Positions 4,880 through 64,000 of a stretch of DNA of 64,000 bases are shown here, one piece after another. The stretch comes from Flavobacteriales bacterium (GTDB lineage: Bacteria > Bacteroidota > Bacteroidia > Flavobacteriales_C > GCA-002722245): contig JAQXEE010000002.1 of NCBI GenBank assembly GCA_029251005.1, positions 210-64,209 of the forward strand, in the 5' to 3' direction. Numbering within the stretch: the stretch's first letter is position 1; each line of letters begins with the position of its first letter. Made by a program: the position numbers and the translations under genes. The notes under the pieces are model-generated. The model ran no database searches, was not told where the DNA came from, and saw only the letters and a list, made by a program, of their open reading frames with translations.

Positions 4880-7231
4880 ATGAAATCAACTTTACTCCTG
4901 TTAACCTTTCTTTTAGCGTTTAAAGCAAACGCAAATTACGACGTAATCATTCAAGTATATGATAATAAAGGTCAGCAGGCTAGGAATCTCCCAGTAGTGC
5001 TAATCGAAAAGGATTCCAAAAAAGCACATCGTTACTTCACCAACTCTTTTGGAAAAGTATCGATAGTACTAACACCTGGTAAATGGAGTGTGAACATCAA
5101 TACAATGAAGCGGTGTCAATTCATTGAAGTTCCTGAAAAAGGAAGCGGTGCTTTAAATTTCATGATTACATATGACCCTAAACATTGGGCGAGACTGAAC
5201 CGCCCAGTTGTAAATCGATCAAGCATAAACTTCCAAACATTCAATCAAAGTAAGCTTAAGAAAAAAGAAAGACCCAAAATAGGGCATTCCTTTGTTAAAC
5301 TAGAACTAAAACAACTCAACAAAAAAGGATTAGCAAACTTCCCTGTCACAATTACCTGCTATAACACAAAGTCACAATTCCAATCGAAAACAAATAAAAA
5401 TGGAGAAGTTTTGTTTGAAGTTCCAAACGAAAACGATTATGAAATTGATTTAGAAAGGAATGAAAGCTTCTCCTATGTTGATATTGGTAAAAGAAGTGGA
5501 CTTTTCACTAAAAAGTTCACTTACCAACCACTTCAAATAAATGAAAATGAGCTTAATGACACCATTACGCAAGAAATACCAATAGCAGATAACAAGTTTG
5601 CATCTTCTGCTAGAGCCTTTTTAAAATTAAGAGTCAAGAATTACAACGATGACATGGAAGGTGAACCTGTTTATTTAAAAATGTTAAAGTCTAATAAAGT
5701 TTACAAGTCTAAAGTCAGAAAAGACGGTCAAGCTCTTTTCATGCTTCCACTACATCGTCGTTACATGATTGAAACTAACTACAAAAAAGCAATCGATGTG
5801 ATTGATTATATGGATTGTAAGGTTCAAAGCATCGTTAGAAGTGAAGATATGTTCACTTTCGACTTAAACTACAAAGTAAAGTTCCCCGAACGATATTTAC
5901 CTCAAAACAAAAACGACTATACTGAATTTTCATCAGAAATTTTCAAACCAAAAACGCACGATCAAGCGTTAGAATACTTTAACCTCTTTTTACAAAAACA
6001 ATATCCAGAACCAACTGGGAAAGAAAGTTTTGGAGCTTATTTAAAATGGGCAACCCCAGAAATTAATGAAAACTCAAAAGAAGCCCTTTTGGAAGTTGGC
6101 TTTGTAGCAAAAGAAATATCAAGCCTTAGCGACATCCCCAAAAGAACCAAACCAATAAACATCTCCTTTGTAATTGATTTAAGTGGGTCGATGGCAGGAG
6201 AAGAAAGATTAGAAGGTGTAAAAAAAGCACTTAAAAAAATACTAAAGCAGTTTCAACCTAATGATATTGTTTCCATCACTACTTTTAACAGAAGTGCTAC
6301 AGTAGTTGTTCCCGCAAATACAATGAGTAAACAAAAACTTATTTACGATATAATTGATGACCTAAGAGCAGGTGGTGGAACAAACATTTATGAAGGTTTA
6401 AAATCAGGGTATCCTCAATTGGAAAAAAATAAAATAGCCAACGCTACCAACAGGTTAGTTTTGCTAACCGATGGATACGGATCAACACCAGTTGAAAAAC
6501 TCATTTCACACACTAAAACTTATCACACAAAAGGATTTGAATGCTTGGCTATTGGTGTAGGAAGTGGTTACAACGAGGCACTAATTAGTCAGTTAGCAAC
6601 GGCTGGCGGAGGTTTAATGTACTTTGGGGGGAACTCAAATAAGCTGAATAATGTTTTTATAAAAGAGTTTTTTAGTACTACAGTTCCATTTGCCGAACAA
6701 GCTTCAATCGAAGTGTATTACAAAAAACAATTGGTTTGGAAACAGTTATACGGTAATACCGCTACCCTTACTCAGGGAAAAGCAAACTTATCTTTAGCAA
6801 ACCTTTACCCAGGAGTTAATAAACTAATGCTAATCAAGTTTGACTTAAACAATCCAACCAAAGAAATCGAAAAGTCCCCTGTCAGGGTAATCATGAAATA
6901 TAAAGACTTACAAAGCGGAAAATCCCAAATTGTAAAAAAAGAGGAGCGACTAAAATGGAAACCTTCGGACGGCTCTAGTGATTACCTAGTAGAAATGAAT
7001 AAAAAAAGAATTCAGGCTGTTGCCACAATGAATCAGGCGCTAAAAGTAATGGCTCAACAACATTCTTCAGGAAATAGCAAAGCAGCCCATCAAACACTTA
7101 TTTTCACCAGGAATCAAATCAAAAAAATATTTCCGAATGCAGTTGAAAAAGATATTTATTCAATGCTAGCGGTAATGGATGATTATGTTAAGACATTTGA
7201 ACTCTTTTTTAACAAAAAAAACGCTGAATAA
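4880..7231 (+). CDS. Secreted VWA-domain protein with N-terminal repeated beta-sandwich domains
   Basis: Signal peptide; MIDAS DLSGS...GGGTN...LLTDG; YfbK-like C-terminal region; three 'TNxxG'-type repeats in the N-terminal half. Confidence 0.8.
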   Translation: MKSTLLLLTFLLAFKANANYDVIIQVYDNKGQQARNLPVVLIEKDSKKAHRYFTNSFGKVSIVLTPGKWSVNINTMKRCQFIEVPEKGSGALNFMITYDPKHWARLNRPVVNRSSINFQTFNQSKLKKKERPKIGHSFVKLELKQLNKKGLANFPVTITCYNTKSQFQSKTNKNGEVLFEVPNENDYEIDLERNESFSYVDIGKRSGLFTKKFTYQPLQINENELNDTITQEIPIADNKFASSARAFLKLRVKNYNDDMEGEPVYLKMLKSNKVYKSKVRKDGQALFMLPLHRRYMIETNYKKAIDVIDYMDCKVQSIVRSEDMFTFDLNYKVKFPERYLPQNKNDYTEFSSEIFKPKTHDQALEYFNLFLQKQYPEPTGKESFGAYLKWATPEINENSKEALLEVGFVAKEISSLSDIPKRTKPINISFVIDLSGSMAGEERLEGVKKALKKILKQFQPNDIVSITTFNRSATVVVPANTMSKQKLIYDIIDDLRAGGGTNIYEGLKSGYPQLEKNKIANATNRLVLLTDGYGSTPVEKLISHTKTYHTKGFECLAIGVGSGYNEALISQLATAGGGLMYFGGNSNKLNNVFIKEFFSTTVPFAEQASIEVYYKKQLVWKQLYGNTATLTQGKANLSLANLYPGVNKLMLIKFDLNNPTKEIEKSPVRVIMKYKDLQSGKSQIVKKEERLKWKPSDGSSDYLVEMNKKRIQAVATMNQALKVMAQQHSSGNSKAAHQTLIFTRNQIKKIFPNAVEKDIYSMLAVMDDYVKTFELFFNKKNAE

Positions 7232-7241
7232 AATTAATTTC

Positions 7242-7280
7242 AAAACTTCAGGATGAACCATTAGTTCACCCCGAGGTTTT
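7242..7280 (+). terminator. Possible terminator hairpin after the VWA gene
   Basis: aaaac-ttc-agg-a-tgaac/gttca-c-ccc-gag-gtttt imperfect stem ending in a T tract. Confidence 0.4.
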
Positions 7281-7352
7281 AAGCTCAAAGAAAGGAAAAA
7301 AACTTAATTATAGCTGCTACTTAGGTGGTTTTGTTACCTCTGCATTTAAACC

Positions 7353-7360
7353 TACCTTTG
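7353..7360 (+). promoter_or_regulatory. Bacteroidota -7 element (TAnnTTTG)
   Basis: TACCTTTG, then agac, then the ATG at 7365. Confidence 0.6.
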
Positions 7361-7364
7361 AGAC

Positions 7365-7979
7365 ATGAGCAAGAACCTCGAAATCGTCCAAAATCTATAC
7401 AACTATATCGAAGCCAAAGAATTTGAAAATATCCGTCCATTATTCCACAAAAACATAAAGTGGAATCAAATGAAAGGATTAATCAATGGCGGAAATTATG
7501 TAGGAGCTGATGAAGTTTTTCAATACGTTTTTACTGAGTTTGAAAATGAATGGGCTGATTGGAAAACTGAGGTTAAAGAATTTTTGGAGGTTGGTGACGA
7601 TGTTATTACTGTAGGATCTTACTCCGGAACATTTAAAAAGTCGGGTAAAAAGATGGAAGCTGAGTTTATGCACAGATATACGCTAAATGCCGGAGCAGTT
7701 ACGATATTCCAACAATACACCGATACTGGTTTGTTCGCAAAAGCAATGAAAGGTGCTAAAACACAAGCTCAATTAAACAACCCTCTTCACGGAATTAGCT
7801 TAAAAGAGATATTAGAGTATTTACTTGCAGAGTATGACTGGGATGGTTTAGCAAGACGTGTTAATATTAATTGCTTTAAAAGTAACCAGACAATTAATTC
7901 TAGTTTGAATTTTTTAAGAAAGTATGATTGGGCAAGGGAGGAAGTTGAATTCCTTTACATCAAATCAATCAAAAACTAG
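7365..7979 (+). CDS. SnoaL/NTF2-like domain fused to a VF530 (DUF2132)-like domain
   Basis: N-terminal ~135 aa SnoaL-like (WNQMKG..GGNYVG.DEV, GSYSGTFKKSGK, FQQYTDT). C-terminal NNPLHGISLKEILEYL...INCFKSN..I.SSLNFLRK..WAREEVE matches VF530. Confidence 0.8.
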   Translation: MSKNLEIVQNLYNYIEAKEFENIRPLFHKNIKWNQMKGLINGGNYVGADEVFQYVFTEFENEWADWKTEVKEFLEVGDDVITVGSYSGTFKKSGKKMEAEFMHRYTLNAGAVTIFQQYTDTGLFAKAMKGAKTQAQLNNPLHGISLKEILEYLLAEYDWDGLARRVNINCFKSNQTINSSLNFLRKYDWAREEVEFLYIKSIKN

Positions 7980-8005
7980 TTTCATTTTACTCACCAGATA
8001 TCATT

Positions 8006-8884
8006 ATGGAATTACATCCAAGAAACAAGCATAAAGGAACTTACGATTTTATTGAGTTAACATTTAGGTTACCTGAATTAAAACAATACGTTCGCCCTAA
8101 CAAATACGGGAACGATTCGATTGATTTTTCAGATGCAAACGCTGTTAAAACTTTAAATAAAGCCTTATTAAAATCGTATTACAAAATTGATTTTTGGGAT
8201 ATTCCAGATGGTTTTTTAGTTCCACCAATTCCAGGGAGAGGTGACTATATTCACAACATTGCCGATTTACTAAAAGAAAGAACTGGTGAAGAAGTTAAAG
8301 TTTTAGATATCGGAACAGGCTCTAGTTTAATTTACCCAATTATCGGAAACAGAGAATACGGTTGGTCATTCATCGCTACTGAAATTGATGAGGAATCAAT
8401 GGCTTCTGCTCAGCAAATTATAGACAAAAATAAAAAGCTTAAAAACATAGAAGTTCGTCATCAAAAAAATCCAAGAGATATCTTTTTAGGAGCTTTGAAA
8501 TCGAATGAATTTGTAGATGTAACGATCTGTAACCCTCCATTCCACGCAAGTATTGAAGAAGCGCGAAAAGGAACGCTAAGAAAACTACGTAACCTGAATA
8601 AGGGGAAAACATTTAGAAAAGCAGAATTGAACTTTGGAGGGAAAGGAAATGAACTTTGGACTGAAGGTGGTGAAAAGCAATTCATTTTCAACATGATTCG
8701 TCAAAGTATTCGATTTGCAGAAAACGTAGGTTGGTTTACAGTTTTGGTTTCAAAAGAATCAATTGTACCTGCCATTATTTCCAGCCTAAAAGCCAATGGT
8801 GCCAAATCAAAAATCATAGAAATGGGACAAGGAAATAAGAAAAGTAGAATCATTTGCTGGAGGTTTAGTAAGAAAGTTAATTAA
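8006..8884 (+). CDS. rlmF: 23S rRNA (adenine1618-N6)-methyltransferase
   Basis: LHPRNKH, LVPPIPGRGDYIH, VLDIGTG, CNPPFH, LNFGG..NELWTEGGE, MGQGNKKSR. Confidence 0.95.
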   Translation: MELHPRNKHKGTYDFIELTFRLPELKQYVRPNKYGNDSIDFSDANAVKTLNKALLKSYYKIDFWDIPDGFLVPPIPGRGDYIHNIADLLKERTGEEVKVLDIGTGSSLIYPIIGNREYGWSFIATEIDEESMASAQQIIDKNKKLKNIEVRHQKNPRDIFLGALKSNEFVDVTICNPPFHASIEEARKGTLRKLRNLNKGKTFRKAELNFGGKGNELWTEGGEKQFIFNMIRQSIRFAENVGWFTVLVSKESIVPAIISSLKANGAKSKIIEMGQGNKKSRIICWRFSKKVN

Positions 8885-9255
8885 TGGCAAATATTGAAAT
8901 AGAAACGGCTTGGGAAAATGGACTTAATTCAGAGGCTCCGTTATTCCCTGCTTGGTTTTGTTTTAAAAGCCCTTATGAATTGTACAATTTTTCACTTTGT
9001 ACATCTGTAGATCTTATTTTAAATGGATCAAAAGACCTAATGCAACTACCCGATCCGTCGGAAAGAATCATTGATTCCAATGGAGATCTTTTCAAATTAG
9101 TCCAATCTAATAATATTATTACGCCAAAAAAAGAAGGGAAAATTACTTTTGACATGTTTAAAGAAATTATACAATCGGTAGATCCTGAAGAACTCAATAC
9201 TTTTGTACCGCTTGATCAAATTGAAGACTTTATTAAAATAAACAAAATCGCTTAA
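8884..9255 (+). CDS. Hypothetical protein
   Basis: 123-aa ORF coupled to rlmF by a TAATG overlap; no family recognised. Confidence 0.6.
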   Translation: MANIEIETAWENGLNSEAPLFPAWFCFKSPYELYNFSLCTSVDLILNGSKDLMQLPDPSERIIDSNGDLFKLVQSNNIITPKKEGKITFDMFKEIIQSVDPEELNTFVPLDQIEDFIKINKIA

Positions 9256-9590
9256 AAGTCTTGTATACCGTTTTTTAGATTAAGTAAACCTGAAGGATAA
9301 CCAGCTCCCTTTAAAAGGTCTATAGCTGCTAAACTTCTAATTCCCATTTTGCAATAAACAACCAATTTCTTATCTACAGGGATTTCATTAACCCTCATCA
9401 ACAACTCGTCTAAAGGAATATGCAAACCACCTATGTTAAATTGCTCTCTTTCCAAGTAGGTCCGAACATCGAGTAAACTAAACTCGCTTAAATATTCGCG
9501 AACGATTGCTGCCGTTACTTCTCCTTTTAATAATTTAATTTGAGCATCATCTAATGATGAATTCCTTTTTCCTTCTGTAGATAAACTCAT
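9252..9590 (-). CDS. Rhodanese-like domain protein
   Basis: LLDVR..E......IGGLHIPL, active-site loop VVYCKMGIRS; resembles the C-terminal domain of MoeZ. TAATTTTG -7 element upstream (about 9618-9625). Confidence 0.85.
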   Translation of the reverse strand: MSLSTEGKRNSSLDDAQIKLLKGEVTAAIVREYLSEFSLLDVRTYLEREQFNIGGLHIPLDELLMRVNEIPVDKKLVVYCKMGIRSLAAIDLLKGAGYPSGLLNLKNGIQDF

Positions 9591-9670
9591 AATTATACTA
9601 GTTCTAATTCTATGTGCACAAAATTAAGTAATCCATCTTCAGTTTTAACGCTCTAAAAAATTAAAACAAT

Positions 9671-9706
9671 AAAAAAAGCCAAGTAAAACATGTTCACTTG
9701 GCCTTT
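9671..9706 (-). terminator. Intrinsic terminator after the TonB-dependent receptor
   Basis: gccaagt...acttggc stem followed by a 7-U tract on the minus strand. Confidence 0.7.
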
Positions 9707-9722
9707 AAAAAAATAAATATTT

Positions 9723-12176
9723 CTAGAATTTAATCGTAACTCCAGTCAGAACATTTGTTCCAGCTTGAGGGTACAACCAATTTTCACTAATTCTATCCCC
9801 CGAAATGAATCCCCATGTATAACCGTTACTGCTATACATTTCGTTAAATACATTATTAACTAATAAGTTAAACTGTACTTCTTTTAAATTCATAAATGAA
9901 GTATTGTAACTAACGACAACATCACTTACTGTATAAGATGCTAAATCTCTGTCATCACTTTGGGTATTATCCAAATATTGCTTCCCTACAAACTTTGTTT
10001 GCAAGCCTAATTCTAATCCTTTTACAGGTTTAAAAGAAAGTAAACTTCCAGCAATTACAGAAGGAGAAAATGATATATCAGAATTTTTATTACTGTTAAC
10101 CTGCAATTGACCGTTCCAATCGGTTGTATAATCAGTAATATATTCTTTAAAATTCGCAATTTTATTTTGCGATAACGTTGTGTTAACTGTCCATTCTAAT
10201 TTTCTTGTTATTCTACAAGCTGCAACCAACTCAACACCAGCTCGATAACTACTAACAACGTTATCTCTAACTCCTGAGCCTACATCATTTAAAGCTCCTG
10301 TCAACACCAATTGATTTTGATAATCCATGTAGTAAAAAGTAGCCTGTCCTAAGAATTTATTAAAACGAGTTTCAACACCCAATTCATAATCATATAATGT
10401 CTCATGATTAGGTTGTGCATTTTGAGGATTGTCTATAAAGTCATTTCTAACAGGTTCTCTGTTTGCTACACTGAAAGAAGCAAATCCAGAAATCTTATTG
10501 TTCAATTGATAATTCAAACCAAACTTCGGGTTAAAAAAAGTAAAGCCTGTATCTACATCTAAAGACTGTTGATTAGCGTCAATTCCTGTATTAGAATAGT
10601 TGATACTTCTTACTTGTAAATCAATGAAACCATTCATCTTTTTATTGATTGAAAGCTCCGACTTAAAGTAAGTATTAAAATCTGTTTTCTTTCCTTGATT
10701 ATCATAGTAACGATCTCTTATACTAGAATTACTAGCATATTCCGCCCAAACTATTTCTCCAAAGTGATCACCAACATATTCGTTGTAACCACCACCTAAA
10801 ATAAACTGAGCCTTTTTAGTTTTGTATTTAACGCTGTAAACACCTCCATAGAAATGATTATCTAGCCATCTTCTTCTAATAAAATCAGATTTAGTTATCG
10901 TATCATTTCCTGTAAATAAAGTATCTAAGTTATAATCCGTTAAATCATCTTGTGAACGAAACTGCTCGTAATATCCTCTACCATAAGTGTAATGTAAAGA
11001 TGCATTTGCACTCAATTTATTGTTAAACTGATGTGTTAAATGTAATTGGTAATGATCTTGGTTATAATTATCAACTTCATTATCGTACGTATAATAATTA
11101 TAATCTCTACCCGAATTTACAAGGTTTGCCGAATCTGAAGGTCCCCACCAGTTATTCGCAATAGATGCTAAAACACCTTCATCATCACCATTTAATTTTG
11201 CTTCTGGAGTTCCCCACCAAGCTTGATAAGTTTTTTCCTTCCCTGCAAAAGTAATTGCTTTAATAACTGTTTTTTCACCATAATAACCTCCTTGCAAGAA
11301 GTAAGAAGATAAATCAGCAGAAGCTCTATCCAAGAAACCATCAGAAGTAACAGAAGATAATCTACCGTCTACAGCCCAATATTTATTGATTAATCCAGTT
11401 CCCATCTTAATCGTGTTTTTATTCGTGTTAAACGAACCATACGATGAAGAAACTTGAGCATAAGCTGAATCTGAAACTAAATCAGTTTGTAAGTTTACAG
11501 ACGCTCCAAAAGCAGCAGCTCCGTTTGTTGAAGTACCTACTCCTCTTTGAATCTGAATATTATTCGTAGACGATGCAAAATCAGGCATGTTCACCCAAAA
11601 AGTACCATGTGATTCTGCATCATTTATTGGAATTCCGTTTACGGTAACATTAATCCTAGATGCATCAGAACCTCTAATTCGAAAGCCAGTATAACCAACT
11701 CCTGCACCAGCGTCGGAAGTAGTTACGATAGAGGGTGTCAATTTAATTAAAGAAGCTAAATCTTGGCCTAAATTAATTTTCTCATAATCTTCCTTACTTA
11801 CATTCACATGAGCAACAGGTCCATTTCCTTTTACTCTTGTAGCTTGAATAGAAACTTCATCCAAGGCTTGTGGAGAAACAGAAAGCGAAAAGTTAGAGAC
11901 GACGTCAGAACCTGCAACAATTATGGTTTTGACTAACTTTTCTTTACCTAGAATTTCAGCTGAAACTTCGTACGAGCCATTCGGAAGATTCGTTAATTTA
12001 AAAGCACCATCAGGATCCGAATAGGTTGCCTGATATGTATTTTCGATTTTCACCAATGCACCGAAAACGGTTTGGTTAAGCGTATCCTTCACTACTCCAG
12101 AAATAGAGTATTGGGCTAACATCGAATAAGATGTTAGGATACACAGCGCCGTTAAAAACAAGTTACTTTTTTTCAT
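9723..12176 (-). CDS. TonB-dependent receptor, probable thiamine uptake
   Basis: Signal peptide, carboxypeptidase-regulatory-like domain, plug (RIRGSDASRINVTVNGIPIND, IQRGVGTSTNG), C-terminal LLVNNVFN...GVTIKF; directly downstream of a TPP riboswitch. Confidence 0.9.
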   Translation of the reverse strand: MKKSNLFLTALCILTSYSMLAQYSISGVVKDTLNQTVFGALVKIENTYQATYSDPDGAFKLTNLPNGSYEVSAEILGKEKLVKTIIVAGSDVVSNFSLSVSPQALDEVSIQATRVKGNGPVAHVNVSKEDYEKINLGQDLASLIKLTPSIVTTSDAGAGVGYTGFRIRGSDASRINVTVNGIPINDAESHGTFWVNMPDFASSTNNIQIQRGVGTSTNGAAAFGASVNLQTDLVSDSAYAQVSSSYGSFNTNKNTIKMGTGLINKYWAVDGRLSSVTSDGFLDRASADLSSYFLQGGYYGEKTVIKAITFAGKEKTYQAWWGTPEAKLNGDDEGVLASIANNWWGPSDSANLVNSGRDYNYYTYDNEVDNYNQDHYQLHLTHQFNNKLSANASLHYTYGRGYYEQFRSQDDLTDYNLDTLFTGNDTITKSDFIRRRWLDNHFYGGVYSVKYKTKKAQFILGGGYNEYVGDHFGEIVWAEYASNSSIRDRYYDNQGKKTDFNTYFKSELSINKKMNGFIDLQVRSINYSNTGIDANQQSLDVDTGFTFFNPKFGLNYQLNNKISGFASFSVANREPVRNDFIDNPQNAQPNHETLYDYELGVETRFNKFLGQATFYYMDYQNQLVLTGALNDVGSGVRDNVVSSYRAGVELVAACRITRKLEWTVNTTLSQNKIANFKEYITDYTTDWNGQLQVNSNKNSDISFSPSVIAGSLLSFKPVKGLELGLQTKFVGKQYLDNTQSDDRDLASYTVSDVVVSYNTSFMNLKEVQFNLLVNNVFNEMYSSNGYTWGFISGDRISENWLYPQAGTNVLTGVTIKF

Positions 12177-56721: not shown

Positions 56722-56747
56722 TAAAAAATGGGCCACAAGCCCATTTT
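56722..56747 (-). terminator. Intrinsic terminator after the 69-aa ORF
   Basis: aaaatgggc-cacaa-gcccatttt 9-bp stem with a U tract on the minus strand. Confidence 0.7.
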
Positions 56748-56766: not shown

Positions 56767-56976
56767 TTAATTTAATAAAAACTTGTTCCTTTTAAATGTT
56801 TCCATCAATGCTAAGGTTACAGGGTATTTTCGAACCTCTTTCATCTCATACCTTTTAACTGCCAATTTCTTTAGATTTAAAATTTTAACCTCTTCATTTG
56901 TTAAATTCTCTTTTTCAAAAATATCTGCAATATCGTCTAAGGTTTTTAAGTATTCAGAAGTAGAGTTAATATCCAT
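56767..56976 (-). CDS. Small protein resembling the N-terminal (non-HTH) part of HigA-type antitoxins
   Basis: I.S..EY...L..I..IF.K..LT.EE...L......V..YE...YP pattern; followed by a terminator. Confidence 0.5.
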   Translation of the reverse strand: MDINSTSEYLKTLDDIADIFEKENLTNEEVKILNLKKLAVKRYEMKEVRKYPVTLALMETFKRNKFLLN

Positions 56977-57030: not shown

Positions 57031-59040
57031 TTATCGCGTCCTTGTAACTGTCGCAATATCAACGAATAAAAAGTCTCTTTTTCTTTTTCTCTCCTTAACT
57101 AAGTCATCAATCTTAACCACTAATCTTACCTGAACAGGTTGTTTTGCTCTTTGTAAAAATATATCATTTTCATCTTTTGCCTTGAGCAAAATAAAATAAT
57201 GCTCCTTCCAACTAACTTTTATCGGAGAATCCAACTTTACTAAATACCAATCTTTTTCCCAGGATAAAAGCTCTCTCTTAACGACCTCTCCCTTAATTGG
57301 AAAATGGTTAGACAATACTCCATAATCACCGTAGCTATCAATTGTCACTTTTGCACCAATTATTTCCTTTAAGTTAAAGTGTTTTACATCTAACCTAGGA
57401 ATACTAAAAAGCAAGTTCCAATCCCAAAATTTGAGTGGCGCCCAATAGTTTGGGATATAATCAAACCTACTTAATTTAGATGTTAAAAAAATTAACAAAA
57501 ACAGTCCTGAGTACAAATCTTTTTGCAACTCATTGTTCGCAACTTCAGCATTAAAACGCCAAGCCATCATGAGATATTCGAACAAGAAAATAGCAGACAA
57601 CCCAAACAATAGATAACTATTTAATCTATCGGGATTGTATGTCCAAATCACCTTTCGATTATAACTATTATTTAAACAATTATTAATCATCGAAACCCAA
57701 AGCACCATGCTAATCAATAACCAAATAAATGTAATAAAACTAAAACTTCGAGCAATTCTGTTGATCAACCAAAAATCATAAAACCCGTGAAAAATGGCAG
57801 CCAACATGTAGAAAAATCCAAAATAAAACAACCAGTTTCTTTTCTTAGCAAATTTACCTATTACAACTCCATAGGCTACAAGTGAAGTATTAAACATATG
57901 AGTTACTGTTGATGAAAGAGAACGCCCTTGAATAGTACTTAAACCTCCTTCGTCAAAGTAAATAAGGTTCTCTACAAAAGCGAAACCCAAAGCAGATATT
58001 GAAGCAAAAACAATATAATCTATAGGCTCTTTTAACTTCTTAGAGAAAATCATAACCAAAACAAGGGGAATAATTTTCACGAACTCTTCAATCATTCCTA
58101 TCCCGATTACAGAATATAAAAAATCATGGAAAAATGAATCTTCAAATTTAAATCCTAAAACATTAGTGTTGAAATCAGTTAAAATGGAAGTCCCAAAAGC
58201 GAAAAACATACCTAAAAAAAGAACTTCAATAGCTAACAACCACCTCTTTTTAAGATACTTATGAATAAAAATCAAATAAACAAACCAAACAATTAGAATC
58301 AATAAAGCCCCCATAAATCCAATAGCATTAACACCGCTAAAAAATCGACTAAAAATAGCTTTCGAATACCCTTCTACGTCTCTTAAATAAAAATAGGTGT
58401 ACCGCTTTACTTTGTTAGGAGTATTGGCAAAAGCTGTAGAATCTTGAAAAAAACTTAACAGTTCGTATGGTTTTTCGTATCGCTTATAAGTATTAGCCAA
58501 TTCCCTGTAGGCTAACTTATTAGTAGGGTTTGAAATAATTTCGATTCTTAAGTATTCAACAGCCTTATCATAATTTGCAAACCCAAAGTAACTACCATAT
58601 ACAAAGTTTAGGTAATCCATCTTTTGATTGTGAATCCCTACAAAACTAGAAAGCGATTCTTCAGCTAAACCCAAATGAAAGAAACAGACTCCCCTTCCAA
58701 ATTTACCGATATCTGAAATTTCATCAAACGGATGACAAGACATTCTTGTATAATATTCAACCAATTTGTTGTTGCTTGATTTTAATTCGAGAGAGGAGGG
58801 GTCATATTCTGAAGCAATCTTAAAATGTGTTGCAATAAAATTAAAGTGATGAGCTACATTTGAGCTATCCTCTTTAATTAATTCAGCATAAATTTTATTT
58901 TGATTGTGAACATCGCCTAAAATAATATACTCCTGAAGTTGTTCTAACTTATTGGAGTAATTTGAATCCGAAAAAAAATAATTCACCACCCCCACCATGA
59001 GTAGTGTAATTGGAAGAATATATAGTAGAATTTTTTTCAA
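57031..59040 (-). CDS. PrsW-family intramembrane glutamic protease with N-terminal TPR-like and C-terminal soluble domains
   Basis: GMIEEFVK, LGFAFVENLIY, THMF, FHGFYD; TPR-like helices in aa ~30-230; TTG start 9 nt after the previous gene. Confidence 0.88.
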   Translation of the reverse strand: MKKILLYILPITLLMVGVVNYFFSDSNYSNKLEQLQEYIILGDVHNQNKIYAELIKEDSSNVAHHFNFIATHFKIASEYDPSSLELKSSNNKLVEYYTRMSCHPFDEISDIGKFGRGVCFFHLGLAEESLSSFVGIHNQKMDYLNFVYGSYFGFANYDKAVEYLRIEIISNPTNKLAYRELANTYKRYEKPYELLSFFQDSTAFANTPNKVKRYTYFYLRDVEGYSKAIFSRFFSGVNAIGFMGALLILIVWFVYLIFIHKYLKKRWLLAIEVLFLGMFFAFGTSILTDFNTNVLGFKFEDSFFHDFLYSVIGIGMIEEFVKIIPLVLVMIFSKKLKEPIDYIVFASISALGFAFVENLIYFDEGGLSTIQGRSLSSTVTHMFNTSLVAYGVVIGKFAKKRNWLFYFGFFYMLAAIFHGFYDFWLINRIARSFSFITFIWLLISMVLWVSMINNCLNNSYNRKVIWTYNPDRLNSYLLFGLSAIFLFEYLMMAWRFNAEVANNELQKDLYSGLFLLIFLTSKLSRFDYIPNYWAPLKFWDWNLLFSIPRLDVKHFNLKEIIGAKVTIDSYGDYGVLSNHFPIKGEVVKRELLSWEKDWYLVKLDSPIKVSWKEHYFILLKAKDENDIFLQRAKQPVQVRLVVKIDDLVKERKRKRDFLFVDIATVTRTR

Positions 59041-59049
59041 ATTATTGGA

Positions 59050-60033
59050 TTATCCGATCATAAGTGGAAGTTTTACAAAGTATTCATCAGCAGTGGATAA
59101 TTCGGAAACACCCGATGCTCTATTATATAACTGATATCTTTGCTTAAGGTTATTTATAAATCGATCATTTTTGACATTATTTTTCAAAGACGGAGGATTG
59201 GATGTTTTAACAACAACAAACTTTCCATTTTCGATGTAAACTTCGATCTTCAATCCAATCTCTGATGCGCAATTATAATTCTTAAACTGATTATCTAAAA
59301 CCATTTGAAAAACTAAAGGAGGAATATGAGTTTTATAAAAATCTTCGGATAAGTTTAACAATAATTCTATTTTCTGATTTAGGTGTATTTCTGCCAATTC
59401 ACAATATTCCTTAACGTTTTTCAACTCAGCACCTAATCTTACAAACTTTTCATCCCTGCTTTGCAATAAATATCTTAAAATAGAAGTTAATTTTTCAACT
59501 TGAACCATAGCAATAGTTTGATCCTTCTTTATTAAATCAATAGTATTGATTAATGATTCTTGTAAAAACTCAATTACATTTTGAGATTTTAAAGCGTTAA
59601 AATTTTGTTGTAAATAATTTTGCTTCTCTTGGGTTAAAATTTGTTGAATGTTGGCGTTTTGTCGTAAACAAAAACAAACGCTTTGAAAAACTCCTGTAAT
59701 GAAAATTACACCTCCTAAAACAAGCTGAATTTCAACAAGAGTAGTTTCCGAAAAATTGAGACTAAACTCTAAAAAACGATAAACTATAAATCCAAAAACA
59801 AACCCAGCAACAGTGTAAGAAATACAGAAATTGAAAAACGTCCAATATTTACTCTTAACAAACTGTTTCACAAGTATCCGCCCTATTCTCATAGTGCTTA
59901 AGCAAAACAAAAATGCAAATAACCATATGTAAAAAACAGCTATTCTAACACTAATTATAATAGCGCCTGACGTTAAGAGCACACTTAAAATCAAAACCAC
60001 CAAAAACCTTACCGATGTTAAACTTTTAAGCAT
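59050..60033 (-). CDS. LytS/YehU-type sensor histidine kinase homolog, predicted catalytically inactive
   Basis: About 4 TM helices, then ALKSQ..., KLTSILRYLL, VRLGAEL..V..Y, IPPLVFQMVLDN, N.KQRYQL, FVKLPL. H-box reads VIEFLQES instead of NPHFLFNS; the GxG box is missing. Confidence 0.85.
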   Translation of the reverse strand: MLKSLTSVRFLVVLILSVLLTSGAIIISVRIAVFYIWLFAFLFCLSTMRIGRILVKQFVKSKYWTFFNFCISYTVAGFVFGFIVYRFLEFSLNFSETTLVEIQLVLGGVIFITGVFQSVCFCLRQNANIQQILTQEKQNYLQQNFNALKSQNVIEFLQESLINTIDLIKKDQTIAMVQVEKLTSILRYLLQSRDEKFVRLGAELKNVKEYCELAEIHLNQKIELLLNLSEDFYKTHIPPLVFQMVLDNQFKNYNCASEIGLKIEVYIENGKFVVVKTSNPPSLKNNVKNDRFINNLKQRYQLYNRASGVSELSTADEYFVKLPLMIG

Positions 60034-60260: not shown

Positions 60261-62663
60261 ATGCGATTTCATATCTTATTGGCTTTTTTACTTGCATTCC
60301 TTTTTGGTTCAGCACAAAAAGGTATCGTATCTGGTAAGTTAATCGATCGCAATACAAAACAACCAATTCCATATTCGAATGTTGTTTTATTCAACTTAAA
60401 CGATTCCATCATTAACGGATCTATTACAAATGATCTAGGTGAATTTACAATCATAAACATCCCATGGGGTAAATATTACCTTTCTTTTCAATCACTTACT
60501 CACAAGGAATTAAAAACCGATCCCATTAATTTATCGACTTCTACCGTACAAATAAAATTGGGTGAAATAATTTTAAAGGAATCAACAAATTTGACGGATG
60601 AAGTAAGCATCAAAGTAGAAAGAGCTGCTGTAAAAATTGAACCTGCTAAAAAAACCTTTGATGTTGCTGCAACTGGAGCAGACGCTGGAGGAACAGCAAT
60701 AGATGTATTAAATAATTTACCTTCAGTTGATGTAGATGATAATGGAACCGTTAGCTTGAGAGGTAATAGCAATATCAGAGTTTTAATCGACGGAAAACCG
60801 GCTGGAGTTACCTCAGATGATATTACTTTAGTCATTTCTCAACTGCCGGCGAATTCCATTGAAACAATCGAAGTTATCACTGTTCCTTCTGCCAAATACG
60901 ACCCTGAAGGTGTTGGTGGAATTATTAACATCATTCTAAAAAAGGAAAAAAAGAAAGGTTACCGAGGTTCGTCTAGCATTTCGTACGCTGCAATTGATAA
61001 AGTTAATGCGAGAGTTTCTTTAAGCATCAATAAAAAAAAATGGGGTTTAAATACATCTTACAGTTACACCGATGGAACTTACTGGAAAAAAATAACAAGC
61101 GATGCTTCAACTTTAATTGATGACAGTTTAACCATTTTTAATAATCATCGAAATGCAATAAACCGTTTCCCTAATCACAACGCAAAACTAGAGGTTTCCT
61201 ACAAGGTTAATAAAATCACAAAACTTAACCTTGAAGGAACGGTAAAGAAAATGTTTTTTAATAATTTAGATTCTTCGGAACTTTATTGGAATTACGATCA
61301 AAAAAACATAATTGAAAACACTCGGAATTCAAATAAAAAAGGGCACAGACTAAGCGGTGGAGGACAATTTAGTTTAGTTTCAAAATTTAAAAATGGAAAT
61401 TCAATAAACTTTCTTTCAAGATTAAAAGGCGTGAATACGCCTAAAGAAGGTTACTTTGACGAGCCTTACCTCTTGCAAAAAGAAACTAGAGTATTTGGTG
61501 CTCAAAATATAGTAAATCAACTCGATTTAACTTTCCCAATTAAAAAAGCAACTAATGACACTGTTAACCTAAAGTATTTAACAATTGAAACAGGCTTAAA
61601 GTCAGCATTTCGTGAATTTCATGAAAATTATAGTTTCTTCGATTACAGCCCAAGTTTAAATAGCTATTATGAGCAAACTTCATTTTCAAATGATTTGAAA
61701 TACAGTGAAAATGTTTATGCTATATATGGTTTATTAAACTTAGGAAATAAAAACTATAAGGCTTCATTTGGGCTTCGATCTGAATATTCAGATATTATTT
61801 CTGAAGCTGCCGGAAATAAGTTTAACAAAGCACTATTGAACTTATTTCCAAGTGCCTCAATAGTTCGTTCATTTTCGGAAACGAGATCGTTATCAATCAG
61901 TTATGGTAAAAGAATAAAGCGACCGCGTGGGAAACAACTCAATCCTATTCCGAGCTACTCCAACCCCTACAGTATTTTTATTGGAAACGCAGAATTAATT
62001 CCAGAGAAAAGTCACATGAGTGAAATATCCTACTTAAACATAGCCAAAAAAACCACCTTTAACGGAACCGTATTTCATCAATTCCGAGATGATCGCTTAG
62101 GAAGATTAAGCTACACCGATTCTATTACAGGAACATCAACTGTAGAATGGTATAATTTCAAATTTCACCAAACACTTGGTTTAGAATTGTTTGCTAATTT
62201 CAAAGCGAAAAAATGGTTTAAAATAAATGGATCAAGTACATTTTATAACACTTGGGTTGATGGCTCTAACTTCAGAGAAAGTTACACTGCTGAGTATTTT
62301 GGATACGATTTAAAAACCAATCTCCAATTTCAACTTGCTGCAAATACAAATTTAACAATCACGGGTGATTACAATTCAGCTCGTATAGCTGTAGTTGGAA
62401 CTGTTATTCCTCGTTATGGCTCTGACATATCCGTTAAACAAAAGTTATGGAAAAAAAAAGCAACGCTTTCGGTAAGGCTAACAGATGTCTTTAAGACGAG
62501 AGGCTTCGGTATAGATGTAAATACCGATAACTGGGAAAGAATAGTTAGATATCGATATGAATCACAATTATTGTGGGTTGCTTTTAGCTATTCATTTGGT
62601 CAAACTAAATTTGGTGGTAAAAGAAATTTTAAAAGAACCTCTCCCAACGATCGTAGCTTTTAG
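60261..62663 (+). CDS. TonB-dependent receptor-like outer-membrane protein (OMP_b-brl_3 type)
   Basis: Carboxypeptidase-regulatory-like domain, plug (DVLNNLPSVDVD..G.VSLRG, VLIDGKP, PSAKYDPEG.GGIINI.LKK), RIKRP, GNAELIPE, FSYSFG near the end. Confidence 0.9.
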   Translation: MRFHILLAFLLAFLFGSAQKGIVSGKLIDRNTKQPIPYSNVVLFNLNDSIINGSITNDLGEFTIINIPWGKYYLSFQSLTHKELKTDPINLSTSTVQIKLGEIILKESTNLTDEVSIKVERAAVKIEPAKKTFDVAATGADAGGTAIDVLNNLPSVDVDDNGTVSLRGNSNIRVLIDGKPAGVTSDDITLVISQLPANSIETIEVITVPSAKYDPEGVGGIINIILKKEKKKGYRGSSSISYAAIDKVNARVSLSINKKKWGLNTSYSYTDGTYWKKITSDASTLIDDSLTIFNNHRNAINRFPNHNAKLEVSYKVNKITKLNLEGTVKKMFFNNLDSSELYWNYDQKNIIENTRNSNKKGHRLSGGGQFSLVSKFKNGNSINFLSRLKGVNTPKEGYFDEPYLLQKETRVFGAQNIVNQLDLTFPIKKATNDTVNLKYLTIETGLKSAFREFHENYSFFDYSPSLNSYYEQTSFSNDLKYSENVYAIYGLLNLGNKNYKASFGLRSEYSDIISEAAGNKFNKALLNLFPSASIVRSFSETRSLSISYGKRIKRPRGKQLNPIPSYSNPYSIFIGNAELIPEKSHMSEISYLNIAKKTTFNGTVFHQFRDDRLGRLSYTDSITGTSTVEWYNFKFHQTLGLELFANFKAKKWFKINGSSTFYNTWVDGSNFRESYTAEYFGYDLKTNLQFQLAANTNLTITGDYNSARIAVVGTVIPRYGSDISVKQKLWKKKATLSVRLTDVFKTRGFGIDVNTDNWERIVRYRYESQLLWVAFSYSFGQTKFGGKRNFKRTSPNDRSF

Positions 62664-64000
62664 GCTTTTAATTCCTCTAATAAATCCTTCAACTTCTCAA
62701 TAAGTATCCCTACTTTTTTCTTAAGTGATAAAATTCCATCATTGCTTCTAGCATCAAGCTCAACTTGTAGTAATAAATTATATATTGAAGTATTCCCTAA
62801 TATTTGAATGTTAGGTTTCATTTTATGACAAATAGAGCCTAACTTCTCACGATTTAATTCTGAATTAAAAGCAATCAGCATTTCCAAATCCTTGGGTATT
62901 TCAGATTTAATCTTATCTAAAATTTTCAACATTAGCCGTTCACTCCCCCCAACATAATCAAGCAAGAAATTCCTGTCCCATAATTTAGGAACATTTAAAC
63001 TCAACGCAGTAGAATCATCTAAATCAAATGCTAACGAAGGTAATTCTCTAGTATTTAATAACTGACTTATTTTTTGATATAATTCTTCAGGTTTGTATGG
63101 CTTAGATAAATATTCGTCAGCTCCCGCAGCTTTACATTTGTCCATTTCTACCTCAGAAACATGTGCTGTTAAAGCAATAATAGGCACATTAAAACCAGCC
63201 GCTCTCAACTTCCGAATGGCTTCATACCCGTCCATAACAGGCATTTGCATATCCATCAATATCAGAGCATGCTTTTCTGGATCAAAAAGGTTAATTGCCT
63301 CTTGTCCATTCACTGCTAATTCTACTTCCGCTTCAATCTCATTCAACAAATCGGTTACCACTAATTGATTTACAGGATTATCTTCTACAAGTAGTATATT
63401 CGTACCACCAAGTTTTAAATCCAAATTATCGTTGGATACTGAAATGCTCGACTCAGATATTTTTTTAAAAGGATATAAAATTTCAAATATAAAGGATGAA
63501 CCTTTTTCTTCTTCACTCACTATAGAAACAGACCCTCCTTGCAATTCTACAAGCTTTTTTACAATAGACAATCCTAAACCGGTTCCTCCAAATTCACGAG
63601 TTGTACTTGAGTTAGCCTGACTAAACTCGTTAAATATTTTAAACTGTTGTTCTTGTGAAATTCCAATTCCTGTATCTGTTATGGTAAACCTCAACAATAC
63701 ATCCTCGCCTGACATTTCCACAGCATTCACGGTTAGTGTTACACTTCCTTCTTGTGTAAATTTAACAGCATTATTAATCAAATTATACAATATTTGATTA
63801 AGTCTAACGGAATCTCCAACTAATACTTCTGGCAGATCATTTTTGTGATAATTAGCAACTAATTCAATGCCCTTCTCTAGTGCTTTCCCCTCAAAAACAC
63901 CAACTACAGAACTCAAAAGGTTAATAAATAAGAACTCTTTTTTCTCCAAAGAAAGCTTTCCCGCTTCTATTTTTGAAATATCAAGTATGTCATTAATAAT
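62660..64000 (-). CDS. Hybrid sensor histidine kinase (HisKA-HATPase-REC-HPt), 5'-truncated by the window edge
   Basis: The frame stays open to 64000 (IINDILDISKIEAGK); NLINNAVKFT, DTGIGI, GGTGLGLSI, LLVEDN, ILMDMQMP, HPt CHKMK. Confidence 0.95.
   Translation of the reverse strand: MINDILDISKIEAGKLSLEKKEFLFINLLSSVVGVFEGKALEKGIELVANYHKNDLPEVLVGDSVRLNQILYNLINNAVKFTQEGSVTLTVNAVEMSGEDVLLRFTITDTGIGISQEQQFKIFNEFSQANSSTTREFGGTGLGLSIVKKLVELQGGSVSIVSEEEKGSSFIFEILYPFKKISESSISVSNDNLDLKLGGTNILLVEDNPVNQLVVTDLLNEIEAEVELAVNGQEAINLFDPEKHALILMDMQMPVMDGYEAIRKLRAAGFNVPIIALTAHVSEVEMDKCKAAGADEYLSKPYKPEELYQKISQLLNTRELPSLAFDLDDSTALSLNVPKLWDRNFLLDYVGGSERLMLKILDKIKSEIPKDLEMLIAFNSELNREKLGSICHKMKPNIQILGNTSIYNLLLQVELDARSNDGILSLKKKVGILIEKLKDLLEELKA

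What the first reader, a model, noticed from the sequence alone, without database searches (positions are those of the whole stretch)
59050..60033. Full-length LytS-family pseudo-histidine kinase
Every structural landmark of a LytS-type kinase is present and in register, but the catalytic ones are replaced. The H-box LKxQ(I/L)NPHFLFNSL becomes LKSQNVIEFLQESL (His to Glu155, nt 59569-59571). The N-box ENAIKH becomes DNQFKN, and the G-box GIGLxN becomes DRFINN. An intact 327-aa frame with no stops or frameshifts suggests selection on a non-catalytic role, and Glu at the phospho-His site could be a phosphomimetic (speculative).
Basis: partly seen in the sequence, partly recalled or inferred. Interest (0 to 1): 0.65.

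Follow-up and report, generated by a model that had tools for sequence, protein, structure and literature searches.

The report
Dead LytS-type kinase beside PrsW protease
This is a real, conserved membrane protein in uncultured marine Flavobacteriales that keeps the full shape of a LytS-type sensor kinase but has lost every residue needed to bind ATP or carry phosphate; it always sits just upstream of a membrane protease gene, so it probably signals without phosphorylation.

Summary
ORF 59050-60033 (-) encodes a 327-aa protein with four TM helices. It matches Pfam His_kinase PF06580 above the curated cut-off and aligns over its full length with canonical LytS kinases (hhalign 99.9%). The predicted fold is closest to the GanS kinase domain.

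The catalytic residues are gone:
- Phospho-acceptor His is Glu155, and the preceding Pro is Ile.
- The H+4 Asn, needed for phosphatase activity in S. aureus LytS, is Glu159.
- The N-box Asn is not conserved among orthologues.
- The G2 glycine is an invariant Phe.
- There is no conserved alternative His.

It is not decaying. I found about 42 intact homologues at 41-99% identity. dN/dS is 0.21-0.32 overall and 0.06-0.09 in the dimerisation hairpin. Metatranscriptome contigs cover the gene.

The degenerate family forms one clade next to canonical kinases. A sister sub-clade still has His but already lacks the ATP site, so ATP binding was probably lost first. The H-site is E, S, A, Q or N in the window's sub-clade, so a required phosphomimetic Glu is not supported.

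In all 7 genus genomes and 7 metagenome contigs the gene lies 1-52 nt upstream of a TPR-PrsW protease and divergent from an OMP_b-brl_3 receptor. No LytTR regulator is adjacent.

Verdict: a histidine pseudokinase, and a new variant of that known kind. Its function with the protease is inferred, not shown.

The parts
59050..60033 (-). Pseudo-histidine-kinase gene (pHK), 327 aa plus stop
   Evidence: ORF listing. PF06580 hit above the cut-off. Full-length hhalign to canonical LytS kinases. About 42 homologue clusters.
59659..60033 (-). N-terminal membrane domain, residues 1-125. Four TM helices with very short outside loops.
   Evidence: The AF2 model has helices 5-26, 33-60, 66-92 and 96 onward. 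This is the fastest-evolving part of the gene: dN/dS 0.40-0.46, and only 73-80% nucleotide identity to L022 against 90-95% in the flanks.
59368..59658 (-). DHp-like helical hairpin, residues 126-222, holding the degenerate H-box
   Evidence: PF06580 match at residues 145-221. dN/dS 0.06-0.09. Most of the family's invariant columns lie here.
59569..59571 (-). GAG codon for Glu155, at the position of the phospho-acceptor His
   Evidence: Sequence read. Alignments to canonical paralogues. Column counts: E31, S2, A1, Q1.
59053..59367 (-). CA-like alpha/beta domain, residues 223-327. N-box reads DNQFKN (nt 59278-59295) and the G2 box reads DRFINN (nt 59149-59166).
   Evidence: Phmmer and Foldseek matches to the GanS kinase domain 6swj/6swk. 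The N-box Asn is variable and the G2 Gly is an invariant Phe.
57031..59040 (-). TPR-PrsW-beta-domain intramembrane protease, 669 aa. It starts 9 nt after the pHK stop codon.
   Evidence: PF13367 at 94.7 bits. AF2 pLDDT 85, with a TPR-like N-terminal domain. Invariant E318, E319, K322, H381, H418 and D422. Immediately downstream of pHK in all 7 genus genomes and in 7 metagenome contigs.
56767..56976 (-). Conserved 69-aa ORF downstream of the protease. No known family.
   Evidence: 52-90% identical copies at the same position in L001, L003, L006, L022 and L024. No Pfam hit.
56725..56747 (-). Terminator-like hairpin (10-bp stem followed by a T-run) just after the 69-aa ORF. Possible end of the operon.
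   Evidence: Consensus scan. The number of such sites in the region is not above chance, so only its position is suggestive.
60261..62663 (+). Divergently transcribed outer-membrane receptor (CarboxypepD_reg + Plug + OMP_b-brl_3), 800 aa
   Evidence: Pfam. Conserved divergent neighbour in every pHK contig that has enough flank. The genome has only two strong genes of this type, and both lie next to a LytS-type gene.

Best explanation
The gene encodes a histidine pseudokinase: a LytS-family (PF06580) paralogue that is kept by selection but cannot act as a kinase.

It retains a four-helix membrane domain with almost no exposed loops, the dimerising DHp hairpin and a CA-like alpha/beta domain. 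It has lost the phospho-acceptor His, the neighbouring Pro, the H+4 Asn needed for phosphatase action in LytS, a constrained Mg-binding Asn and the G2 glycine. It therefore should not bind or hydrolyse ATP, autophosphorylate, or dephosphorylate a regulator. All of this is read from sequence and inferred for activity.

It most likely works as a non-enzymatic membrane signalling or scaffolding subunit whose conserved DHp surface binds a partner. The best candidate partner is the TPR-PrsW intramembrane protease encoded 9 nt downstream. The divergent outer-membrane receptor may provide the input. This step is inferred from synteny only.

My confidence that it is a catalytically dead protein maintained by selection is about 0.85. 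My confidence that the protease is its functional partner is about 0.35-0.4.
For: **Homology and fold**
- PF06580 hit above the cut-off.
- Full-length profile alignment to canonical kinases, probability 99.9%.
- AF2 model at pLDDT 77. Best PDB matches are the GanS kinase domain (TM 0.61 by target), then DesK, CpxA, AgrC and BceS.

**Loss of catalytic residues**
- Alignments with the five canonical paralogues of the same genome and with 134 canonical representatives.
- Column counts.
- No conserved alternative His.
- The roles of LytS His390 and Asn394 come from PMC8774646.

**Selection**
- dN/dS is 0.21-0.32 overall and 0.06-0.09 in the DHp region.
- 42 intact homologues.
- The family forms one clade (SH-aLRT 95).

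**Expression**
- Metatranscriptome contigs with 0-3 mismatches cover parts of both genes.

**Link to the protease**
- The two genes are 4-13 nt apart in all 7 genus genomes.
- They are also adjacent (1-52 nt by the gene calls) in metagenome contigs whose outer flanks differ.

**No adjacent regulator**
- None of the genome's 8 LytTR genes is on this contig.
Against: - No biochemical data exist, and the organism is uncultured.
- The window protein itself still has the N-box Asn.
- Orthologues of the protease (40-47% identity) in sister genera have no adjacent pHK. The His-bearing sister sub-clade of the pHK family is not next to a PrsW gene. So the pairing is specific to this clade and could be inherited gene order rather than a functional link.
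- No transcript contig spans the gene junction.
- The CA-like domain evolves faster than the DHp region (dN/dS 0.27-0.41), so part of the protein is under weaker constraint.
Confidence: 0.6

Rival explanations
1. It is a pseudokinase that modulates ordinary LytS/LytTR two-component signalling. It would do so by forming heterodimers with a canonical LytS kinase, or by binding or sequestering a LytTR regulator, as DivL binds DivK~P. The neighbouring protease would then be unrelated.
For: - The DHp hairpin, which is the dimerisation and regulator-docking surface in kinases, is the most conserved part (dN/dS 0.06-0.09).
- The genome has three orphan LytTR regulators and one orphan LytS kinase.
- A second degenerate LytS-like gene sits inside a kinase-pseudokinase-LytTR operon on contig C133. 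Accessory dead paralogues within LytS/LytTR systems therefore exist in this organism.
Against: - No LytTR gene is adjacent.
- None of the three orphan LytTR regulators shares the pHK distribution across the 21 genomes of the family.
- The tight and invariant coupling to the protease gene within the clade is left unexplained.
Confidence: 0.25
2. It is a phosphotransfer protein of the Spo0B/ChpT type rather than a fully dead protein. It would be blind to ATP but still pass phosphate, using a non-canonical acceptor.
For: - The sister sub-clade (P0167, P0169, P0170; loci L032 and L033) keeps His at the H-site while already lacking the G2 glycines and the Pro.
- Earlier scan notes describe ATP-blind, His-retaining LytS-like proteins in other Bacteroidota. 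These are leads only.
Against: - The window's sub-clade has E, S, A, Q or N at the site and no other conserved His.
- No kinase or receiver gene is adjacent.
Confidence: 0.04
3. It is a substrate or anchor that the PrsW protease cleaves, in the way RsiW is cleaved in Bacillus subtilis. Cleavage would release or inactivate the cytoplasmic DHp-CA module.
For: - Operon arrangement with a PrsW-family protease whose catalytic motifs are invariant.
- PrsW is known as the site-1 protease of a membrane anti-sigma factor (established knowledge of B. subtilis PrsW/RsiW).
Against: - The pHK has almost no extracytoplasmic loop for a site-1 cut.
- No ECF sigma or other released effector gene is in the conserved neighbourhood.
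- The protease is conserved without pHK in sister genera.
Confidence: 0.08
4. It is a decaying relic of a kinase gene with no function.
For: Loss of all catalytic motifs. The TM and CA-like parts evolve relatively fast.
Against: - Intact frames across 41-99% identity.
- dN/dS well below 1 everywhere, and 0.06-0.09 in the DHp region.
- 56 invariant columns across 35 sequences.
- Transcript fragments are detected.
Confidence: 0.02

Closest known systems
Canonical LytS/YehU-type sensor kinases (Pfam PF06580 + HATPase_c), e.g. S. aureus LytS, E. coli BtsS/YehU, Geobacillus GanS (PDB 6swj/6swk)
   Same: Membrane domain, DHp hairpin and CA-like fold are aligned over the full length. Structural motifs such as LKSQ, LRY, IPPL and NLKQRY are kept.
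   Different: There is no phospho-acceptor His or Pro, no H+4 Asn, no constrained N-box Asn and no G2 glycine. No LytTR partner gene is adjacent.
Histidine pseudokinases DivL (Caulobacter) and PsmA (Streptomyces venezuelae)
   Same: Kinase-like proteins that lack the H-box His, are conserved, and act through protein-protein contacts rather than phosphorylation (PMC4211667; PMC12963549).
   Different: Those two are soluble or PAS-containing members of the HisKA type. DivL keeps a CA domain that binds a regulator. This protein is a PF06580-type, four-TM membrane protein with a degenerate ATP site, no nearby regulator, and a protease as neighbour. A literature search for 'LytS' plus 'pseudokinase' found nothing.
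Spo0B / ChpT histidine phosphotransferases (kinase-derived, ATP-blind)
   Same: DHp-like helices plus a degenerate CA-like domain. The His-bearing sister sub-clade resembles this state.
   Different: The window's sub-clade has no His at the site and none elsewhere that is conserved.
Bacillus subtilis PrsW-RsiW regulated proteolysis
   Same: A PrsW-family intramembrane protease is encoded together with a membrane signalling protein.
   Different: No anti-sigma or ECF sigma gene is present. The protease carries extra TPR and C-terminal beta domains. The pairing is limited to one genus-level clade.
Intramembrane-sensing kinases that need a membrane partner (BceS with BceAB, LiaS with LiaF)
   Same: A short membrane domain without a real extracellular sensor. 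BceS in the BceAB-S complex is among the top fold matches (8g3a_D).
   Different: Those are active kinases with response regulators. Here the output chemistry is absent.

Membership tests
Functional LytS-type histidine kinase (PF06580 family) | DHp domain matching PF06580 above the gathering score | tested here: met
   32.9 bits against a cut-off of 25.2, residues 145-221. hhalign 99.9% to canonical members.
Functional LytS-type histidine kinase (PF06580 family) | Phospho-acceptor His in the H-box (N/S-P-H-F) | tested here: not met
   The site reads V-I-E-F. It is E in 31 of 35 orthologues, otherwise S, A or Q. 134 of 134 canonical representatives have PH. No alternative conserved His exists.
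Functional LytS-type histidine kinase (PF06580 family) | H+4 Asn (Asn394 in S. aureus LytS, needed for phosphatase activity) | tested here: not met
   The window has Glu159. The column reads E23, D5, N3, K2, Y1, G1. The role of this residue is taken from PMC8774646.
Functional LytS-type histidine kinase (PF06580 family) | Conserved N-box E-N-A with the Mg/ATP-ligand Asn | tested here: not met
   The window has D-N-Q, so Asn is present. In orthologues the position is N23, K4, H4, E3, Q1. Canonical members are essentially invariant at EN(A/C).
Functional LytS-type histidine kinase (PF06580 family) | G2 box G/S-x-G/A-L in the ATP lid | tested here: not met
   The window has D-R-F-I. Phe replaces the Gly in 35 of 35 sequences.
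Functional LytS-type histidine kinase (PF06580 family) | Cognate LytTR response regulator encoded next to it | tested here: not met
   None of the genome's 8 LytTR genes is on the window's contig. Neighbours in all related contigs are a PrsW protease and an outer-membrane receptor.
Functional LytS-type histidine kinase (PF06580 family) | ATP-dependent autophosphorylation | not testable with these tools
   Needs purified protein and labelled ATP.
Histidine pseudokinase (functional class of DivL and PsmA) | Kinase fold retained | tested here: met
   AF2 model pLDDT 77. Foldseek top hits are all histidine-kinase DHp-CA structures, with GanS at TM 0.61.
Histidine pseudokinase (functional class of DivL and PsmA) | Catalytic residues absent but the gene is kept under purifying selection | tested here: met
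   dN/dS 0.21-0.32 overall and 0.06-0.09 in the DHp region. 42 intact homologues.
Histidine pseudokinase (functional class of DivL and PsmA) | Demonstrated absence of kinase activity, and an identified binding partner | not testable with these tools
   Biochemistry and interaction assays are required.
Spo0B/ChpT-type histidine phosphotransferase | Conserved phosphorylatable His on the helical bundle | tested here: not met
   Absent in the window protein and its sub-clade. Present only in the sister sub-clade.
PrsW/anti-sigma regulated-proteolysis module | Anti-sigma factor and ECF sigma genes linked to the protease | tested here: not met
   No ECF sigma gene lies in the conserved core of the neighbourhood. 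The only sigma seen, in L003 and L004, has regions 1.2, 2, 3 and 4 and lies outside the core.

The most novel reading that the evidence does not exclude
Two-component hardware has been rewired into a phosphorylation-free envelope pathway. In this reading the outer-membrane OMP_b-brl_3/Plug receptor senses a signal. The four-TM pseudokinase relays it within the inner membrane by a conformational change of its conserved DHp dimer. That change gates, or is read out by, the TPR-PrsW intramembrane protease. The output would be proteolysis rather than phosphotransfer. The evolutionary route would be: active LytS kinase, then an ATP-blind form that keeps His, then a fully dead adaptor.
Probability: 0.2. 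Interest if true: 0.8.

Novelty: new variant of a known kind. Interest (0 to 1): 0.5.

Why it matters
Bacterial histidine pseudokinases are known from only a few studied cases, such as DivL and PsmA, and none of those cases is of the LytS/PF06580 type. The full-text search found no paper that pairs LytS with 'pseudokinase'.

This family gives a clean natural series: canonical kinases, an ATP-blind sub-clade that keeps His, and a sub-clade that has lost His. That series suggests the order in which kinase functions are lost.

The family also points to a possible coupling between a kinase-derived scaffold and an intramembrane protease. If confirmed, that coupling would be a new way of wiring envelope signalling in abundant marine Flavobacteriales.

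There is a practical point as well. One source already names these proteins 'LytS/YehU family sensor histidine kinase', and that annotation is misleading.

Tried and rejected
1. **NCBIfam scan of the pHK:** no hit.
2. **Missing HATPase_c hit as evidence of degeneracy:** rejected. The canonical paralogues of the same genome also fail that model.
3. **Phylogenetic profiles of the three orphan LytTR regulators (C143, C159, C67) across the 21 family genomes:** none tracks the pHK. All have orthologues in genera without pHK or are missing from pHK-bearing genomes. No candidate regulator partner emerged.
4. **Co-transcription of pHK and the protease:** metatranscriptome contigs cover both genes in pieces, but none spans 59040-59050. 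Contigs are unstranded and could include DNA carry-over.
5. **Promoter and terminator scan:** counts are not above shuffled expectation. Only the hairpin after the 69-aa ORF is suggestively placed.
6. **Fold search of the whole PrsW-like model:** it identified only the TPR part. The C-terminal beta domain (about residues 560-668) remains unassigned, and Pfam finds nothing there.
7. **Glu155 as a required phosphomimetic:** rejected as a requirement because S, A, Q and N occur in orthologues. An H-to-E variant of DesK has been crystallised (DesKC_H188E, entry 3gif), which I recall (from memory, not checked here) was designed as a phosphomimetic. The idea therefore remains possible for the majority form.
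8. **The low dS of the CA-like segment:** it looked odd at first but lies within the local background identity between the two genomes.
9. **GTDB genome scan for the family:** only 8 loci, all uncultured MAGs. No cultured host is available.

Full report
**1. The observation**

The ORF at 59050..60033 on the minus strand is intact: 327 aa, ATG start, no internal stops. Glu155 is the GAG codon at 59569-59571.

Pfam finds His_kinase PF06580 at residues 145-221 with 32.9 bits, above the curated cut-off of 25.2. It finds no HATPase_c. NCBIfam finds nothing.

A phmmer search of PDB sequences matches residues 175-289 to the kinase domain of GanS (6swj). The match runs through the N-box region.

A profile of 35 family members aligned against a profile of 25 canonical LytS-type kinases gives probability 99.9% and E 3.5e-36 over 315 columns, from the membrane region to the C-terminus.

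**2. What is lost and what is kept**

I aligned the protein with the five canonical paralogues of the same genome and with 147 representatives from a search of 1.84 billion proteins. The comparison is as follows.

| Feature | Canonical members | Window protein | Orthologue column (35 sequences) |
|---|---|---|---|
| H-box | (K/R)SQ(L/M)(N/S)PHF(L/I)FN | KSQNVIEFLQE | H-site: E31, S2, A1, Q1 |
| H+4 residue | Asn | Glu159 | E23, D5, N3, K2, Y1, G1 |
| N-box | E-N-A | D-N-Q | Asn position: N23, K4, H4, E3, Q1 |
| G2 box | G/S-x-G/A-L | D-R-F-I | Phe in 35 of 35 |

- In S. aureus LytS, His390 is the autophosphorylation site and Asn394 (the H+4 residue) is needed for phosphatase activity (PMC8774646).
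- Among the representatives, 134 of 134 canonical proteins have Pro-His in the H-box, and 129 have EN(A/C) in the N-box.
- The window protein has only two His residues (217 and 236), both at variable columns. The one majority-His column in the family is Gln in the window. There is no alternative acceptor.
- The structural residues that are invariant in canonical members are retained. These include L148, Q151, L157, the LRY motif, E203, Y210, IPPL, Q243 and the C-terminal NLKQRY...P.

First, the window protein itself still carries the N-box Asn. Second, the absent HATPase_c hit means little, because the His-bearing canonical paralogues of this genome also miss that model's cut-off.

**3. Fold**

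An AlphaFold2 model built on the 35-sequence alignment has a mean pLDDT of 77. It shows four membrane helices with very short connecting loops, a long helical hairpin and an alpha/beta domain.

Foldseek against the PDB returns only histidine-kinase DHp-CA structures at the top. GanS is first (E 1e-7, TM 0.61 normalised by target). BceS in the BceAB-S complex, DesK, CpxA, AgrC and RetS follow.

**4. Selection and expression**

The word-indexed search found 42 close homologue clusters at 41-99% identity. Nearly all are 311-334 aa and come from marine metagenomes and Flavobacteriales MAGs.

Nei-Gojobori estimates for the three closest gene sequences are given below.

| Region | dN/dS |
|---|---|
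| Whole gene | 0.21-0.32 |
| DHp hairpin | 0.06-0.09 |
| Membrane domain | 0.40-0.46 |
| CA-like domain | 0.27-0.41 |
| Neighbouring protease | 0.07 |

None of the 8 gene sequences examined has an internal stop. Neutral decay is excluded.

Marine metatranscriptome assemblies from at least three studies contain fragments of the gene with 0-3 mismatches. This suggests expression in situ. These contigs are unstranded, may include DNA carry-over, and none spans the junction with the protease gene.

**5. Extent and history of the family**

In the exhaustive profile search only 13 representatives score at E <= 1e-30. After them comes the continuum of canonical kinases.

The degenerate proteins form one clade (SH-aLRT 95) with two sub-clades:

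- **Sub-clade A** contains the window protein. Its H-site is E, N, S, A or Q.
- **Sub-clade B** has H, S, A or W at the H-site. Its His-bearing members (KSK(T/S)ILHFLQ) already lack the Pro and the G2 glycines.

The simplest reading is that ATP binding was lost first. That would leave an ATP-blind protein, perhaps a phosphotransfer protein like Spo0B or ChpT. The His was then lost at least twice. This ordering is an inference from a quick tree rooted at its midpoint.

Among the 21 genomes of the taxonomic family, sub-clade A is present in 7 of 8 genomes of the window's genus. Sub-clade B is present in one other genus. A scan of one genome per GTDB species found only 8 loci, all from uncultured MAGs.

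**6. Genomic context**

The pHK stop codon is 9 nt from the start of a 669-aa protein with a PrsW intramembrane-protease domain (PF13367, 94.7 bits).

The model of that protein (pLDDT 85) shows an N-terminal membrane anchor, a TPR-like domain of about 200 residues, the helical protease core and a C-terminal beta domain. The acidic and histidine motifs E318, E319, K322, H381, H418 and D422 are invariant across 42 homologues. The protease is therefore probably active.

In all 7 genus genomes that carry pHK, the protease gene follows it after 4-13 nt. The same pairing occurs in seven metagenome contigs, with 1-52 nt between the called genes (some protease starts appear to be called short), including contigs whose outer flanks differ.

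A CarboxypepD_reg/Plug/OMP_b-brl_3 outer-membrane receptor is always divergently upstream. A conserved 69-aa ORF usually follows the protease.

However, orthologues of the protease at 40-47% identity in sister genera, and more distant ones across Bacteroidota, have no adjacent pHK. Sub-clade B is also not next to a protease. The pairing is therefore invariant within one clade but not obligatory for the protease.

**7. Relation to ordinary LytS/LytTR systems in the same genome**

The genome has 7 PF06580 matches and 8 LytTR genes, and none of the LytTR genes is on the window's contig.

It has only two strong OMP_b-brl_3 genes. One is the neighbour of pHK. The other, on contig C133, is divergent from an operon made of a canonical LytS kinase, a second degenerate LytS-like protein of 302 aa and a LytTR regulator.

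That second degenerate protein belongs to its own conserved family, at 47-96% identity. It has no His at the H-site, and most of the ATP-lid region is deleted.

The receptor-plus-LytS arrangement therefore looks ancestral. The window's locus looks like a derived version in which the kinase is dead, the regulator is absent and a protease follows.

I looked for a regulator partner by phylogenetic profile. None of the three orphan LytTR regulators tracks the pHK.

**8. Mechanism**

- **Shown by sequence comparison:** the residues for phosphate acceptance, phosphatase action and ATP binding are missing or unconstrained. The dimerisation and docking hairpin is under strong constraint.
- **Inferred:** the protein is a dimeric membrane scaffold that signals through protein contacts.
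- **Inferred from synteny alone:** the partner is the TPR-PrsW protease, with the outer-membrane receptor as possible input.

The membrane domain has no real extracellular loop. It resembles intramembrane-sensing kinases that rely on a membrane partner, such as BceS and LiaS. This comparison rests on established knowledge plus the fold hit.

The membrane domain is also the most divergent stretch of the whole locus between close relatives, at 73-80% nucleotide identity against 90-95% in the flanks. That pattern fits a fast-evolving interaction or sensing surface, or relaxed constraint.

The main rival is that the protein modulates LytS/LytTR signalling, as DivL does in the CckA pathway.

**9. 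Comparison with known systems and novelty**

Histidine pseudokinases are an established kind: DivL (PMC4211667) and PsmA (PMC12963549). A full-text search for LytS together with pseudokinase returned nothing. PrsW together with histidine kinase and Bacteroidetes returned only an unrelated Bacillus paper.

I rate this as a new variant of a known kind. It is a membrane-embedded pseudokinase of the PF06580 type, dead at both the acceptor and the ATP site, without a regulator gene, and fixed in an operon with an intramembrane protease.

Interest is moderate. The pseudokinase call is solid and the evolutionary series is neat. The functional link to the protease is untested and the hosts are uncultured.

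Noticed in passing
Own genome contig C133, about 5148-10508 (locus L059:2649-8009; L013:75-2716): A second locus has the same layout. An OMP_b-brl_3 receptor is divergent from an operon of a canonical LytS kinase (342 aa), a degenerate LytS-like protein (302 aa; H-box LKNQIDIPETIN; N-box VGEVLKH; ATP-lid region deleted) and a LytTR regulator. The degenerate protein has its own conserved family at 47-96% identity.
   Followed up: partly
window 56767-56976 (-): A 69-aa ORF with no known family is conserved (52-90% identity, 25 invariant residues) directly downstream of the PrsW-like gene in five related contigs. It is followed by a terminator-like hairpin at 56725-56747.
   Followed up: partly
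window 59887-59889 (-), residue 49 of the pHK: The window protein has Arg49 where at least 90% of family members have Glu, at the cytoplasmic end of TM2 (motif LMEIG). An independent 99%-identical cluster of 27 sequences shares the Arg, so it is a real lineage-specific charge reversal.
   Followed up: partly
window 59650-60033 compared with L022: The part of the pHK gene that encodes the membrane domain is only 73-80% identical in nucleotides to the closest relative. The flanking receptor and protease genes are 90-95% identical. This is a local divergence hot-spot or a recombined segment.
   Followed up: no
window 57031-57360 (-), residues about 560-668 of the PrsW-like protein: A confidently predicted C-terminal beta-rich domain has no Pfam match, and the whole-protein fold search gave it no assignment. 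It contains nearly invariant S593, E595, D597 and W598.
   Followed up: no
window 62660-64000 (-): A hybrid histidine kinase (HisKA, HATPase_c, receiver and a C-terminal Hpt-like tail) lies convergent with the receptor gene. It is present in some related contigs (L001, L022, L024) and absent from others (L003, L004), so it is not part of the conserved core.
   Followed up: no
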